27,443 bases of DNA, taken from the IMG/VR virus record IMGVR_UViG_3300034521_000267, positions 1 to 27,443 of that record; one strand, written 5' to 3'. Position 1 is the first letter of the stretch. Each line of letters starts with the position of its first letter. The stretch comes from a virus. Lineage: Duplodnaviria; Caudoviricetes. Positions 1-27,443 of this stretch are shown here, in pieces. A program made the position numbers and the translations under genes. The notes beneath the pieces were generated by a model. It worked only from the letters and a program-made list of their open reading frames with translations, had not been told where the DNA came from and did not search any database.

Positions 1-187
1 TAAAATCTACTGTTTGTGATATAAACCCCGTTACAGTCCCATACACGCCCGCAGGACCACCAATGGAAGCATAAGTTCTGAACGCCCTGTCTCCTTCATA
101 TATGGAGCCTGTCGATGAACCCGTATTTGCCCCGCTTACCGTCCATCCTGTATTTCCGTCCTCCGCACCGCCGTTGGTCACCCTTTC
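1..187. repeat. Terminal direct repeat, copy 1 (circular assembly overlap)
   Basis: Identical to 27257-27443 except position 60 (C) versus 27316 (T). Confidence 0.97.
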
Positions 188-1515: not shown

Positions 1516-4514
1516 CCTCTGATACCTCTCTGTACCCTGGCCCGTGTCATCCTGCTCTCATAGTCACGCATGAACTGCTCGAAAGGATAGTCCTTGCTCA
1601 GCGTCATGTTCTGGATGATGAGGGTGTTTCCTCCAATGTTGTTGGTCTGACTACTGGCAGTAGCTGCAGCTCCGAAAGATTGGTCGGCTGTAATGGGTGG
1701 CACCATGCCTGCAATGTCACTCATTCTGCTCCGGACCACCCCTTCAAGGCCCTTGGTAGATTCCAAGATGGGATCCACAAAGAATGCATCCCAATTCGGC
1801 AGTTTCTTCAATGCTCCCTCTTTTGCAGGACTGAAAGGGAAATAGTTCCTGACGCGGGAGACCACGCGGCTTACCGCGCTTGTGACCTTTGGTGCAGCTG
1901 AGGTTATCCCCCTGGCCAGGTTCGACATGATGGAGGACCCTGCTTTTGCAGCAGTTGAGGCTGCTGAACTGAGAGCACTGGAGACGCTGCTTAGGGTGCT
2001 GGTTACTGTGCTGGTAGTGGACTTGCTTGCGGATGAGCTGCTGCCGGAAGAGCTGGAACTGGAAGAGGATGTACTGCTGGATCTGGATGAGAAGCTCAGT
2101 GCCGAGCTGACCGCAGATGTCAGAGAGGATATTTTCGATTTGATTCCATCTATCAGTGACTGTATCCATGCCGCACCGATATTGTAGAACGTAGATACTG
2201 CATTAGAGAGGGCCTTGAATATGTTGTTCACAGCATTCTGCAGAGCTGCAACGATGTTGTTCCAGCCGCTTGACCACCCGCTTAGCATGGAATTCATCGC
2301 ACCAACTAGATACGAAACTATAGAGGACAGTACCCCGGACAGAGTAGAGTATATCGAATTCAGCACATTGGACACGATGTTTCTCATAGTCCCGCCTGCA
2401 GAAGAGACTGTATTCAATGTCTCACTCATCATCGAAGATATGATAGAGGATATGTTGTTCACTGCATTTTGTAGAGCTGCAACAATGTTGCTCCAGCCAC
2501 TTGACCACCCGCTCAGCATAGAGCTCATTGCATTGACAAGGAATGAAACGATAGTGGAGAGTACCCCGGACAGAGTAGAGTATATCGAATTCAGCACAGT
2601 GGATACAGTGTTCCACAGAGCCCCACCTGCAGATGTGACTGTGTTCAATATTCCAGCTGCATAGTTTTGAATCCTGGTCCAGTAATACCCAAGGTACCAT
2701 TCTAAAGCTGTATCATACCGATCAAACCATCCGGTAATGATACCAAGCAGTCCGTCTAATATCCCCGTGATATAATCCACAAAGGTGGACACGATTATTC
2801 CAGCTGTATTCCACGCCCCCGCCCAGTCGCCAGTGATGAGCTGTGCCGCGAGGACAATGAAGTTTCCGATTTGTTCAACAACGTAGGATACTATTGAGAT
2901 GATTGGGGGCAATACTGCCTGCACCACGGAAAGAAGTACTTTGATATGGCTTTCAATCAGCCACATGATAGCAGATGCGATCACACTTACTGCAGCAGTG
3001 ATCACGGGACTGTTGTCTGTCCACCACCCACCGAACACTTCGAGTGCATCAGTGACAAACTGTTTGATGAGTTCAATTACGGGAGTAGCGGCTTCTTTGA
3101 TAGTGTTGAATGTCTCTTTGACCACGGGGCCGATCTTATCCCAGTTTTTGTATATCACATATGCAGCAAGCGCCAAGGCTGCAAGTGCTATTCCCACCGG
3201 ACCGAGTATCACACCTACAACTCCCGAGAGTGTAGCTCCAAGGCCACCTACCACTGCAGTCAGGCCACCAGCTCCCCCAATGAATGTAAGCAGGCCACCT
3301 ATCCCGGACATGAGAGTACCAACGACAAGCAGTACCGGACCAACTGCAGCAGCGATTGCTCCCAGTACGACGATGATTTTCAGAACAGGAGTGGGTATTT
3401 TTGACAGCCGCTGTGCAAGTGCTGTCATGCCTTTGACAAGAGGAAGCACTCCCACTGTCACAACGTCGCCCATCGCGATCATCAGTTCTTCCATAGCAGA
3501 CTTCAATTCACGTGCTGCACCACCAGGGCCACCCTGCATGATGTCTGCCATTTCCTGTGCGGCACCACCCGCATTCTCTAATGCCAATGTTTGCTCCCTG
3601 ATAGCATCAGTACCTATACTCATCAGGGCAAGCATACCCGGCCCGGCTTCCTGTCCGAACAACTCCATAGCGTCTGCCGTGGATAACCCAGCCCTGGACA
3701 GAGTCTCGAGGATATCCGTGAATGAACGCGTGCTGGGGTCCACGTCTGCAAGGGTAAGGTTGTATTGTTCCAGCACATTCGCTACTCTAGCAGTGGGGCT
3801 TGCCAACCGTGTCATAGCACCTCTAAGAGCAGTACCCGCCCTGCTTCCCTGGATACCCGCATCGGACATCTTACCGATGAGGGATGCGGCCTCTTCCATT
3901 GACATACCCATCGCCGCTGCAAGGGGTGCTGCGTAGGACATTGCCTCACCAAGCTGTTGAATATCGGTGTTGGATGATGCTGCGGCCTTTGCAAGCACGT
4001 CAGCAACTCTCCCTGCCTCTGATGCCTGCAGCCCAAATCCTGTCAGGACATTGGAAGCTATATCAGCAGCTGTGCCCAGGTCGATAGCCCCAGCGGATGC
4101 CAGGTTCAGCATATCATCGGTTGCTGCAAGGATCTCATTCACATTGAATCCCGCCATTGCAAGATACTGCATACCTTCTGCGGCTTCAGATGCTGAGAAG
4201 GCAGTTGTGGAACCCAGTTCCCTGGCAAGTGACCGGAGCTGTTCAAACTCTTCCCCGGTGGCACCGGATACTGCCATCACCTTTCTCATGGAGTCGTCGA
4301 AATCAACTGCAGTCTTATATGAGAGGGCAGCCATACCCACCAGCGGTGCTGTTACTGCCATTGACATGGTCTTGCCGGCCGCAGACATCTGCTTGCCTGC
4401 ACTTTGCAGTTTGCCACCGAGCTGGTTGACCTCGTTGCCAACCTCCGCAAATGCCTTCTTGAGCTGGCCAATATCACCAACGATTGATACAACAAGATTA
4501 CCGATTGCCGACAT
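1512..4514 (-). CDS. Tail tape measure protein (TP901-like core)
   Basis: 1000 aa, Ala/Gly-rich, with LGSTTAFSASEAAEGMQYLAMAGF and GIQGSRAGTALR motifs and hydrophobic stretches. Follows the tail chaperone. Confidence 0.95.
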   Translation of the reverse strand: MSAIGNLVVSIVGDIGQLKKAFAEVGNEVNQLGGKLQSAGKQMSAAGKTMSMAVTAPLVGMAALSYKTAVDFDDSMRKVMAVSGATGEEFEQLRSLARELGSTTAFSASEAAEGMQYLAMAGFNVNEILAATDDMLNLASAGAIDLGTAADIASNVLTGFGLQASEAGRVADVLAKAAASSNTDIQQLGEAMSYAAPLAAAMGMSMEEAASLIGKMSDAGIQGSRAGTALRGAMTRLASPTARVANVLEQYNLTLADVDPSTRSFTDILETLSRAGLSTADAMELFGQEAGPGMLALMSIGTDAIREQTLALENAGGAAQEMADIMQGGPGGAARELKSAMEELMIAMGDVVTVGVLPLVKGMTALAQRLSKIPTPVLKIIVVLGAIAAAVGPVLLVVGTLMSGIGGLLTFIGGAGGLTAVVGGLGATLSGVVGVILGPVGIALAALALAAYVIYKNWDKIGPVVKETFNTIKEAATPVIELIKQFVTDALEVFGGWWTDNSPVITAAVSVIASAIMWLIESHIKVLLSVVQAVLPPIISIVSYVVEQIGNFIVLAAQLITGDWAGAWNTAGIIVSTFVDYITGILDGLLGIITGWFDRYDTALEWYLGYYWTRIQNYAAGILNTVTSAGGALWNTVSTVLNSIYSTLSGVLSTIVSFLVNAMSSMLSGWSSGWSNIVAALQNAVNNISSIISSMMSETLNTVSSAGGTMRNIVSNVLNSIYSTLSGVLSSIVSYLVGAMNSMLSGWSSGWNNIVAALQNAVNNIFKALSNAVSTFYNIGAAWIQSLIDGIKSKISSLTSAVSSALSFSSRSSSTSSSSSSSSGSSSSASKSTTSTVTSTLSSVSSALSSAASTAAKAGSSIMSNLARGITSAAPKVTSAVSRVVSRVRNYFPFSPAKEGALKKLPNWDAFFVDPILESTKGLEGVVRSRMSDIAGMVPPITADQSFGAAATASSQTNNIGGNTLIIQNMTLSKDYPFEQFMRDYESRMTRARVQRGIRG
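2221..2650. repeat. Imperfect tandem duplication within the tape measure gene (231-bp / 77-aa period)
   Basis: ATGTTGTTCAC at 2221 and 2452. Shared exact core AGTACCCCGGACAGAGTAGAGTATATCGAATTCAGCAC; the peptide VLNSIYSTLSGVLS...SMLSGWSSGW.NIVAALQNAVNNI occurs twice. Confidence 0.9.
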
Positions 4515-10560: not shown

Positions 10561-10596
10561 GTGTATACTACTAGTATAAAAACTTTATATGGAAAA
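10561..10596 (-). promoter_or_regulatory. Late promoter copy 1 (TATA plus palindrome TATACTA-C-TAGTATA)
   Basis: 35/36 identical to 13544-13579. TTTATA box on the - strand about 30 nt upstream of the protease ATG, implying a near-leaderless transcript. Confidence 0.8.
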
Positions 10597-13381: not shown

Positions 13382-13543
13382 GATTATTTCTCCTTTGACA
13401 CATGTTCGCCGCACCACTCGTCATAAGGGACTACAGGAAAACCAACTTTCGCAACCGGTGCACTACGTCTGCAGTGACCAAATGTGACAGCCAGGGGCTT
13501 GAAAAAAGTGCATGTCGAACACGTGTCGTTCATGCGTGTAGGG

Positions 13544-13579
13544 GTGTATACTACTAGTATAAAAAGTTTATATGGAAAA
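13544..13579. promoter_or_regulatory. Late promoter copy 2, potentially bidirectional
   Basis: GTGTATACTACTAGTATAAAAAGTTTATATGGAAAA has TATA-like boxes on both strands. The - strand faces the portal operon and the + strand faces the mini-CRISPR. Confidence 0.8.
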
Positions 13580-13597
13580 CAATCGACGCAACATTAT

Positions 13598-13827
13598 CAC
13601 GCTGAAGTAAGAAGACCACCGTTTTTAAACGGTGGATGAAGTATCTAATGCAAAAATCATATTCAAAAGCAAGATCCACTAAAACAAGGATTGAAACTCA
13701 GAAGCTCAGGACAGTTCGTGTAGTTCTGAAGTGATTCAAAAGCAAGATCCACTAAAACAAGGATTGAAACGTCGTTGGATTCGATGATGAAGCAGGAAGC
13801 CACCATATGAATAGGGTGGTAGTTCAC
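13598..13827 (+). mobile_element. Non-autonomous IS200/IS605-like element (no tnpA/tnpB) carrying a mini-CRISPR
   Basis: Left-end hairpin CCACCGTTT-TT-AAACGGTGG (13616-13635) followed by ATGAA. Right end GAAGCAGGAAG-CCACC...GGTGG-TAGTTCAC ends in TCAC. Left boundary uncertain (after TTAT 13597 or TCAC 13600). Confidence 0.7.
13661..13770 (+). CRISPR. Mini-CRISPR array: two identical 37-nt repeats and one 36-nt spacer
   Basis: ATTCAAAAGCAAGATCCACTAAAACAAGGATTGAAAC at 13661-13697 and 13734-13770. Spacer TCAGAAGCTCAGGACAGTTCGTGTAGTTCTGAAGTG. The repeat ends in ATTGAAAC and resembles Methanosarcina repeats. Confidence 0.93.
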
Positions 13828-14033
13828 ACATCCCTCTCTTTTTGTTTCTCCATGATCTTAGTTGCAATTTCCTCTGCAAGTACATCACTCTTATGCTTGA
13901 TGCTTTCGTTATCCGAATAATACTTTGCAAGGTAATCAATGGCTCTGCTCTTGCTGCAGCTCTGCTCTTTCATGACACGGTGCACTATTGAAAGTGTTTC
14001 CCCGCTGAGGGTAAGGCATTGTTTTGATCTCAT
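13824..14033 (-). CDS. Small ribbon-helix-helix-like DNA-binding protein
   Basis: QCLTLSGETLSIVHRVMKEQSCSKSRAIDYL fits a beta-helix-helix pattern. Confidence 0.6.
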   Translation of the reverse strand: MRSKQCLTLSGETLSIVHRVMKEQSCSKSRAIDYLAKYYSDNESIKHKSDVLAEEIATKIMEKQKERDV

Positions 14034-26930: not shown

Positions 26931-27443
26931 TCACCTTGCTATATTGATTCCCATTAAGTCGATGTACTTTTTTGATGAGTCGGGGGCTAGTGCTGAGATC
27001 GAGTCTATGTAAGCATCAACTGTTGAACCTCCGGGCATCTGTTGTTGTATTTTCATTGCATAGGATTCAAACCTTAACGTCTGTTCACCCGTTATGCCCG
27101 ATGTATCGACAGTTACCTTTGTCCATGATGATTGTGCAGAGGTTCGAGTGAACACCGCTGTACCGCCAATCAATGCTCTGAAATGTGGTGTTCCTGCTGT
27201 GTCAACATTAGTATATGTGGCTACCCTATACCAAAACGTGAGTTCATCCACATTCGTAAAATCTACTGTTTGTGATATAAACCCCGTTACAGTCCCATAC
27301 ACGCCCGCAGGACCATCAATGGAAGCATAAGTTCTGAACGCCCTGTCTCCTTCATATATGGAGCCTGTCGATGAACCCGTATTTGCCCCGCTTACCGTCC
27401 ATCCTGTATTTCCGTCCTCCGCACCGCCGTTGGTCACCCTTTC
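26931..27443 (-). CDS. Junction-spanning tail/adhesin protein with carbohydrate-binding-like jelly-roll domain (starts at 193)
   Basis: VTNGGAEDGNTGW...ISQTVD...LTFWY...WTKVTVD...LRF...YIDSIS pattern of galactose-binding-like domains. Confidence 0.7.
   Translation of the reverse strand, partial: ERVTNGGAEDGNTGWTVSGANTGSSTGSIYEGDRAFRTYASIDGPAGVYGTVTGFISQTVDFTNVDELTFWYRVATYTNVDTAGTPHFRALIGGTAVFTRTSAQSSWTKVTVDTSGITGEQTLRFESYAMKIQQQMPGGSTVDAYIDSISALAPDSSKKYIDLMGINIAR
27257..27443. repeat. Terminal direct repeat, copy 2
   Basis: 186/187 identical to 1-187. Confidence 0.97.

What the first reader, a model, noticed from the sequence alone, without database searches (positions are those of the whole stretch)
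13771..13850. CRISPR repeat fused directly to a TnpB omega-RNA-like 3' end
Seen: repeat 2 is immediately followed by 57 nt (GTCGTTGGATTCGATGATGAAGCAGGAAGCCACC...TAGTTCAC) on the same strand. Established: the IS605 right end encodes the 3' part of the TnpB guide scaffold, the flanking DNA is the guide, and Cas12 systems arose from TnpB associating with CRISPR repeats. Inference: Cas6 cleavage would release a chimeric RNA. It could be a second crRNA against host IS605 copies, a truncated omega RNA guiding host TnpB to insertion-free sibling viruses (motif + ACATCCCTCTC...), or an inert remnant. The scaffold looks short, so TnpB function is uncertain.
Basis: inference. Interest (0 to 1): 0.7.

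Follow-up and report, generated by a model that had tools for sequence, protein, structure and literature searches.

The report
CRISPR mini-array inside transposon ends
A virus that likely infects the methane-making archaeon Methanolobus carries a 230-base gutted IS605 transposon whose genes have been replaced by a one-spacer CRISPR array matching a related virus, so it likely borrows the host's CRISPR machinery against a competitor, and the kept transposon ends might let the guide hop.

Summary
The 57 nt after repeat 2 match the last 57 nt of an autonomous IS605 (tnpA+tnpB) in a Methanosarcinaceae genome at 55/57. That element's left end (43/43) lies upstream of repeat 1. So 13598-13827 is a 230-bp non-autonomous IS605 derivative: TTAT | left end | tnpB start remnant | repeat-spacer-repeat | right end. 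A sibling virus has the empty TTAT site, with no duplication.

The repeat is identical to a Methanolobus type I-B array. The spacer matches a related virus at 34/36 with the expected TTA PAM. Best reading: an anti-competitor mini-array in transposon ends, with the tail mainly the TnpA right end.

The omega scaffold lacks its 5' half, the known empty site has 4 mismatches in the first 12 guide bases, and host IS605 copies lack a TTA PAM.

Both array junctions fall exactly on repeat edges, which suggests capture by spacer-mediated recombination (inferred). No second insertion site was found, so mobility is unproven. I found no report in print, and the scan's earlier notes held nothing similar.

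The parts
13544..13579 (.). 36-nt AT-rich promoter-like element, repeated at 10561-10596. It likely drives the minus-strand late genes. It also holds a plus-strand TATA-like TTTATATG at 13567-13574 behind a purine run, which would start a transcript near 13597 (inferred).
   Evidence: 97% direct repeat; motif position; archaeal TATA spacing is recalled
13594..13597 (+). TTAT target motif of the IS605 family; belongs to the virus flank
   Evidence: present at the empty site of sibling L003; precedes 33 of 37 distinct left ends in host-family genomes
13598..13640 (+). IS605 left end: guide tetranucleotide AAGA at 13612-13615, hairpin at 13616-13635
   Evidence: 43/43 identical to nt 1-43 of the G106 element; DNA fold
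13641..13662 (+). Remnant of the tnpB start (parent nt 491-512, reading M-Q-K-S-Y); its last 2 nt are shared with repeat 1. tnpA and the DNA up to here are deleted.
   Evidence: 22/22 identical to the element in L145
13661..13697 (+). CRISPR repeat 1
   Evidence: Rfam CRISPR-DR7; exact match only in Methanolobus psychrotolerans arrays, one of them beside cas8b/7/5/3/1/4
13698..13733 (+). 36-nt spacer matching a related virus (L158) inside the HNH reading frame nested in its terminase intein; TTA PAM; same sense as the target mRNA
   Evidence: 34/36 match with 5' flank GTTA; Pfam intein, terminase and weak HNH_3 hits; no self target, best other place in the window has 14 mismatches
13734..13770 (+). 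CRISPR repeat 2, identical to repeat 1
13771..13827 (+). Last 57 nt of the IS605: 3' half of the omega-RNA scaffold plus the TnpA right end (GAAG at 13796-13799, hairpin at 13800-13819, terminal TCAC at 13824-13827)
   Evidence: 55/57 to L138; covariance model 40.6 bits
13828..13847 (+). Viral flank that would be the TnpB guide
   Evidence: 4 mismatches in the first 12 nt to the L003 empty site; the 24-nt flank was found only in the identical virus copy
13824..14033 (-). 69-aa viral ORF whose stop codon TGA is supplied by the element's terminal TCAC; in the sibling the stop is TAA from the TTAT motif

Best explanation
The stretch is the right end of a 230-bp non-autonomous IS605 derivative whose genes are replaced by a host-type repeat-spacer-repeat unit; host Cas6 likely cuts out one crRNA that would steer host type I-B Cascade-Cas3 against a related virus, while the 57-nt tail likely serves, if at all, as a TnpA right end rather than a guide RNA. 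Shown by sequence: the mosaic anatomy, the parent element, the empty site, the host repeat, and the PAM-flanked target. Inferred: transcription from the flanking plus-strand TATA-like site, Cas6 processing, and interference. Inferred origin: recombination between IS605 DNA and IS-derived spacer(s) of a host array, which puts both junctions exactly on repeat edges, followed by a deletion that removed tnpA and the left protospacer's PAM. Whether this happened in the virus, or the finished cassette jumped in, is open.
For: Parent identity: left end 43/43, tnpB start 22/22, right end 55/57. Empty TTAT site without duplication in L003 and an L003-like allele in run X1. Exact repeat in Methanolobus arrays, one beside type I-B genes. 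Related proviruses in 22 and 26 of 36 genomes of that genus. Spacer 34/36 to L158 with TTA; all 7 listed repeats with this 22-nt core have PAM TTA in PMC8482600's supplement. L158 shares the small terminase at 67% aa. Mini-arrays typically target related viruses (PMC11656645 and PMC6858448 passages). No foreign base lies between IS DNA and repeat on either side, and TTA lies 38 nt before the left junction in 8 of 8 related parent copies. A 125-bp CRISPR-free mini element of the same family sits beside the terminase gene of another related virus (L397).
Against: No RNA data, and no host leader is present, so expression is unshown. The predicted crRNA folds on itself at -10.6 kcal/mol; only 1 of 167 host crRNAs folds as stably. 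One spacer mismatch is at position 7, near the seed. The right junction lacks a TTA PAM (TGA in 14 of 15 copies), so the capture model needs a 1-nt slip there. The left TTA has an 11% background rate and the 8 copies are not independent. No host spacer from this IS was found among 172 spacers or in 177 genomes. The cassette was seen at one site in one virus lineage only.
Confidence: 0.65

Rival explanations
1. Inert scar. The cassette is the by-product of a virus escaping CRISPR targeting of an IS605 it carried. It is not usefully transcribed, and is tolerated because it sits in a cargo slot and leaves the upstream gene's stop intact.
For: No leader; the DNA upstream of the tnpB start is deleted; strongly self-folding crRNA; single lineage; an empty sibling allele is at greater contig depth in X1 (108.8 against about 41-52; depth is a rough measure).
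Against: Repeats are perfect and identical to the host's, the spacer hits a related virus with the right PAM, and both ends are intact. A recent origin could explain intactness without selection.
Confidence: 0.18
2. The Cas6 product of repeat 2 (8-nt handle plus tail) acts as a second crRNA against IS605 copies, or as a decoy that titrates host Cascade.
For: The first 36 nt of the tail match G106 copies with 0-1 mismatches. The junction is exactly at the repeat end, so the product would look like a crRNA. The virus's own copy is flanked by repeat sequence.
Against: The target flank is TGA or TAA, never TTA, in 15 of 15 copies. There is no downstream repeat. The RNA has the same sense as tnpB mRNA, so type III targeting of that transcript is excluded. 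The tail keeps a stable hairpin over the seed.
Confidence: 0.09
3. The tail is a minimal or split omega RNA that guides host TnpB to TTAT plus flank, cutting the virus's own excision product or empty siblings so that the cassette is retained.
For: The pseudoknot, 3' hairpin and inner stem are kept. Stand-alone omega RNAs work in trans (PMC10691335 and PMC10055086 passages). The repeat's ATTGA could replace the lost 5' strand of one stem (by eye).
Against: The covarying 5' hairpin and the CCTG partner strand are gone. It scores 40.6 bits against 67-110. Deleting core stems lowers activity for ISDra2 and ISDge10 (other families). The known sibling site has 4 mismatches in the first 12 guide bases.
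Confidence: 0.08

Closest known systems
Virus-borne CRISPR mini-arrays (SPV1/SPV2, Medvedeva 2019, PMC6858448; review PMC11656645)
   Same: One spacer between host-identical repeats, no cas genes, targets a related virus, spares itself.
   Different: No host leader. The array sits between the left and right ends of an IS605 inserted at the family's TTAT motif.
PATEs / non-autonomous IS200/IS605 mini elements (PMC10055086 passages)
   Same: Left and right end hairpins, target motif, no duplication, no coding capacity, cognate autonomous tnpA element in the host family.
   Different: The cargo is a CRISPR repeat-spacer-repeat unit, and the omega scaffold is cut to its 3' half, whereas PATEs often keep a whole one (L065 and L074 do).
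TnpB-to-Cas12 intermediates (Altae-Tran 2023, PMC10691335 passages)
   Same: A CRISPR repeat is physically joined to IS605 omega-RNA sequence.
   Different: There tnpB stays and the array lies downstream, arising by omega-RNA duplication or insertion near an array. Here tnpB is lost and a class 1 host repeat is taken into the transposon.
Spacer-mediated phage-CRISPR recombination (Varble 2019; title seen in a reference list, content recalled)
   Same: Would give junctions exactly at repeat edges.
   Different: The recombining partner here is an insertion sequence, and the product is a minimal array within transposon ends.

Membership tests
Non-autonomous IS200/IS605 element (PATE/MITE) | Subterminal hairpins at left and right ends homologous to an autonomous Y1-TnpA element | tested here: met
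   43/43 and 55/57 to the G106 element; tnpA hits PF01797 and NF033573
Non-autonomous IS200/IS605 element (PATE/MITE) | Inserted 3' of a fixed tetranucleotide without target duplication | tested here: met
   Empty TTAT site in L003; TTAT before 33 of 37 left ends
Non-autonomous IS200/IS605 element (PATE/MITE) | Moves as a unit (same element at several sites, or an exact excision joint) | tested here: inconclusive
   Only one site found; no exact excision joint and no foreign flank listed in runs X1 and X2; the collections are incomplete
Non-autonomous IS200/IS605 element (PATE/MITE) | Excised by cognate TnpA in trans | not testable with these tools
   Guide/cleavage pairs AAGA:TTAT and GAAG:TCAC fit the IS608 pairing rule, which is recalled
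Virus-borne CRISPR mini-array | 1-2 spacers, repeats identical to a host array, no cas genes | tested here: met
Virus-borne CRISPR mini-array | Spacer targets a related virus, with the host PAM, and not itself | tested here: met
   34/36 to L158 with TTA; PAM from PMC8482600 supplement; no self hit
Virus-borne CRISPR mini-array | Leader or promoter in front of the array | tested here: inconclusive
   No host leader, upstream DNA is IS-derived; a TATA-like site lies at 13567
Virus-borne CRISPR mini-array | crRNA made and interference shown | not testable with these tools
   needs RNA sequencing and an interference assay
Stand-alone TnpB omega RNA | Complete conserved scaffold | tested here: not met
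   5' hairpin and one helix strand deleted; 40.6 bits against 67-110
Stand-alone TnpB omega RNA | TAM plus guide-matching target exists | tested here: not met
   L003 has 4 mismatches in 12; the exact flank occurs only in the filled copy. An excision product would match but was not seen.
Type I-B crRNA (tail as second spacer) | Target flanked by the TTA PAM | tested here: not met
   TGA in 14 and TAA in 1 of 15 parent copies
Type V / TnpB-CRISPR system | tnpB-family effector gene next to the array | tested here: not met
   No TnpB domain in 37 window ORFs scanned; only the first codons remain

The most novel reading that the evidence does not exclude
A transposable CRISPR guide cassette. Host TnpA excises and re-inserts the 230-bp unit at TTAT sites, so an antiviral guide with no cas genes spreads between viruses and chromosomes. 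It lands silently at ATAA stop codons on the other strand, because its TCAC end restores a stop. It would have formed when CRISPR spacers against the IS recombined the array into the IS itself.
Probability: 0.3. Interest if true: 0.8.

Novelty: new variant of a known kind. Interest (0 to 1): 0.6.

Why it matters
How leaderless viral mini-arrays are acquired is described as open in the passages I read (PMC7099407). This locus keeps both parental pieces recognisable to the base, so it is a rare snapshot of one route, and it gives a 230-bp substrate on which excision, crRNA production and inter-virus interference can each be tested. If TnpA still moves it, IS605 ends would be a vehicle for class 1 CRISPR guides: the reverse of the TnpB-to-Cas12 path, with the array entering the transposon and the nuclease lost.

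Tried and rejected
Search for further copies or independent cassettes:
- The repeat-to-right-end junction pattern gave only the identical virus copy in viral contigs.
- It gave 4 hits in metagenomes, all chance on inspection, and 0 of 392 genomes of the class.
- A looser pattern gave 2 of 177 genomes, neither followed by the right-end hairpin.
- Among 115 distinct right ends in 144 viral loci (73 with at least 400 nt upstream), only the self copy had CRISPR-spaced repeats. The scan behind it covered 33 of 64 parts.

Other dead ends:
- PAM from my own data failed. Of 172 spacers, only the window's own and one 6-mismatch hit mapped, so the PAM comes from the literature.
- No host spacer matched the parent IS beyond 12-13-nt chance words.
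- L158 and L003 records hold no IS605 and no repeat, but they are fragments.
- Sequencing runs: no RNA holder listed. Run X2 lists no contig over the spacer; a hole proves nothing, so a spacer-less variant is neither shown nor excluded.
- The sigma-70 promoter scan does not apply to archaea.
- Rfam has no family for the tail.
- I rejected TCAC as the left target motif, because the empty site and 33 of 37 left ends give TTAT.
- The scan's earlier notes held nothing that bears on this.
- Literature searches (listings, plus passages of a few papers) showed no mini-array within IS605 ends. Subscription papers and bioRxiv supplements were not visible, and catalogue supplements on methanogen viruses may list this array.

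Full report
Setting. The window is a tailed-virus genome with terminase, capsid-like, tape-measure, primase-polymerase and RecT genes and a 187-nt terminal repeat. Related proviral DNA occurs in 22 and 26 of 36 genomes of the genus of Methanolobus psychrotolerans. The exact 37-nt repeat was found only in arrays of that species, one of them beside cas8b, cas7, cas5, cas3, cas1 and cas4. Methanolobus with a type I-B system is therefore the likely host.

Observation. Repeat 2 (13734-13770) is followed directly by the 57 nt at 13771-13827. A pattern for their hairpin and TTCAC end occurs in 33 of 177 genomes of the host family, with no hit for the reversed control, mostly behind tnpB-like reading frames. 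The closest parent is a 1651-bp IS605 in G106 with divergent tnpA and tnpB; its last 57 nt match at 55/57.

The larger element. A second hairpin lies upstream of repeat 1. Bases 13598-13640 equal nt 1-43 of the parent (43/43), and 13641-13662 equal the tnpB start of a sister element (22/22). TTAT precedes 33 of 37 distinct left ends at this offset; three of the other four look shifted by one base. Sibling virus L003 (89-91% identical on both sides) has TTAT followed directly by the homologous flank, with no duplication. An L003-like empty allele coexists with the filled one in run X1. So 13598-13827 is a 230-bp non-autonomous IS605 derivative with a repeat-spacer-repeat unit in place of tnpB. 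The guide/cleavage tetranucleotides AAGA:TTAT and GAAG:TCAC fit the IS608 pairing rule, which I recall and did not look up.

Silent landing. On the other strand the target reads ATAA and the element's end reads GTGA, so the upstream 69-aa gene keeps a stop at the same codon. A second case turned up: related virus L397 (terminase 69% aa) carries a 125-bp CRISPR-free mini element of the same family (left end 42/43) whose end supplies the stop of the terminase frame. Two cases may simply reflect survival of harmless insertions. In 10 of 17 related proviral regions examined, both anchors were found and the same slot holds 1.9-10.7 kb of unrelated genes.

The spacer. A wobble-tolerant scan of viral contigs found one other record, L158. 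The match is 34/36, with TTA directly 5'. It lies in an HNH-type reading frame nested in the intein of that virus's large terminase. L158 shares the small terminase with the window at 67% aa. The window has no self target. In the supplement of PMC8482600 all 7 repeats with this 22-nt core have PAM TTA (5 type I-B, 1 I-A, 1 III-B); the window's exact repeat is not among them. This is the pattern described for viral mini-arrays (passages of PMC11656645 and PMC6858448). Against function: there is no host leader, the crRNA is predicted to fold on itself more stably than all but 1 of 167 host crRNAs, and one mismatch is at position 7. A TATA-like site at 13567 would start a plus-strand transcript near the element's first base (spacing recalled, untested).

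The tail as RNA. In 38 host-family right ends the scaffold has six helices, with 95.7% of cells paired and 16 pairs changed on both sides; 0 of 500 shuffles reach these values, and slid controls pair at 30-48%. The structure was written by me from a parent fold, and the end columns were fixed by the search pattern, so those columns are uninformative. The window keeps the inner stem, pseudoknot and end hairpin, but lacks the 5' hairpin and the CCTG strand. It scores 40.6 bits against 110 for the parent, which is in the training set, and 67 for two mini elements outside the training set with whole scaffolds. In other TnpB families, deletion of core stems lowers activity, though some 5' trims are tolerated (passages of PMC12415229 and PMC13507860). 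The would-be guide mismatches the known empty site at positions 1, 4, 9 and 12, and the flank was found in no other virus record. As a crRNA, the first 36 nt match G106 copies with 0-1 mismatches, but the flank is TGA in 14 and TAA in 1 of 15 copies. Both RNA readings are possible but weak.

Origin (inferred). No foreign base lies between IS-derived DNA and the repeats on either side. If breakpoints fell at random in 36-nt spacers, that would happen about once in a thousand (rough estimate, no call). Recombination between IS DNA and IS-derived host spacers predicts it. TTA lies 38 nt before the left junction in 8 of 8 related parent copies, within the host spacer range of 33-43 nt, and the left deletion removes exactly that PAM. 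This support is mild: the background rate is 11% and the copies are related. The right side needs a 1-nt slip from TTG, and no such host spacers were found. Short likeness between the parent's GGAATTGA and the repeat's end could point to microhomology instead. Recombination with host arrays is proposed for leaderless mini-arrays in passages of PMC6858448 and PMC7099407; Varble 2019 was not held and is recalled.

Mobility and spread. The cassette was seen in the window, in one identical record (L002) and in contigs of runs from one study, always at this site. Junction scans found no other copy. It may have formed in place from a full IS605 and never moved.

Verdict. The array works like a known viral mini-array and meets its sequence-level tests. 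The shell meets the anatomical tests of a non-autonomous IS605 element, but not the test of movement. It is not a type V precursor and fails the omega-RNA scaffold test. The combination was not in the papers my searches reached, which passages of PMC10055086 and PMC10691335 frame. New variant of a known kind; interest 0.6.

Noticed in passing
L397:1787-1911 (IMGVR_UViG_3300029202_000001): A 125-bp CRISPR-free mini element of the same IS605 family after TTAT. Its right end is turned into a near-perfect palindrome, and it supplies the TGA stop of the terminase frame, as in the window.
   Followed up: partly
L158:1402-4116 and 2340-3308: Terminase large subunit with an intein whose DNA carries a 322-aa HNH-type reading frame in another frame of the same strand; both frames are open.
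   Followed up: partly
window 13535-13915 homologous slot in Methanolobus proviruses (e.g. G068, G080, G066, G093): The slot holds 1.9-10.7 kb of different host-like genes in 10 of 17 regions examined: a cargo hotspot, or a split domesticated provirus.
   Followed up: partly
window 10561-10596 and 13544-13579: A 36-nt near-palindromic promoter-like element duplicated at 97%; similar copies appear on other contigs in runs X1-X3 and X9.
   Followed up: no
window 1-187 and 27257-27443: A 187-nt terminal direct repeat (99%) suggests a complete circular 27.3-kb genome, although the record is classed as linear and 42% complete. No integrase domain was found among the 37 ORFs scanned.
   Followed up: no
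L065, L074, L075 (viral contigs): Mini IS605 derivatives; L065 and L074 show both ends and keep a complete omega-RNA scaffold, so they are candidate stand-alone guide RNAs in phages.
   Followed up: partly
L140:4527 onward (G106:C5): A lone left end, identical to the window's 43 nt, that breaks off about 4 nt further on and runs into other DNA with no right end nearby.
   Followed up: no
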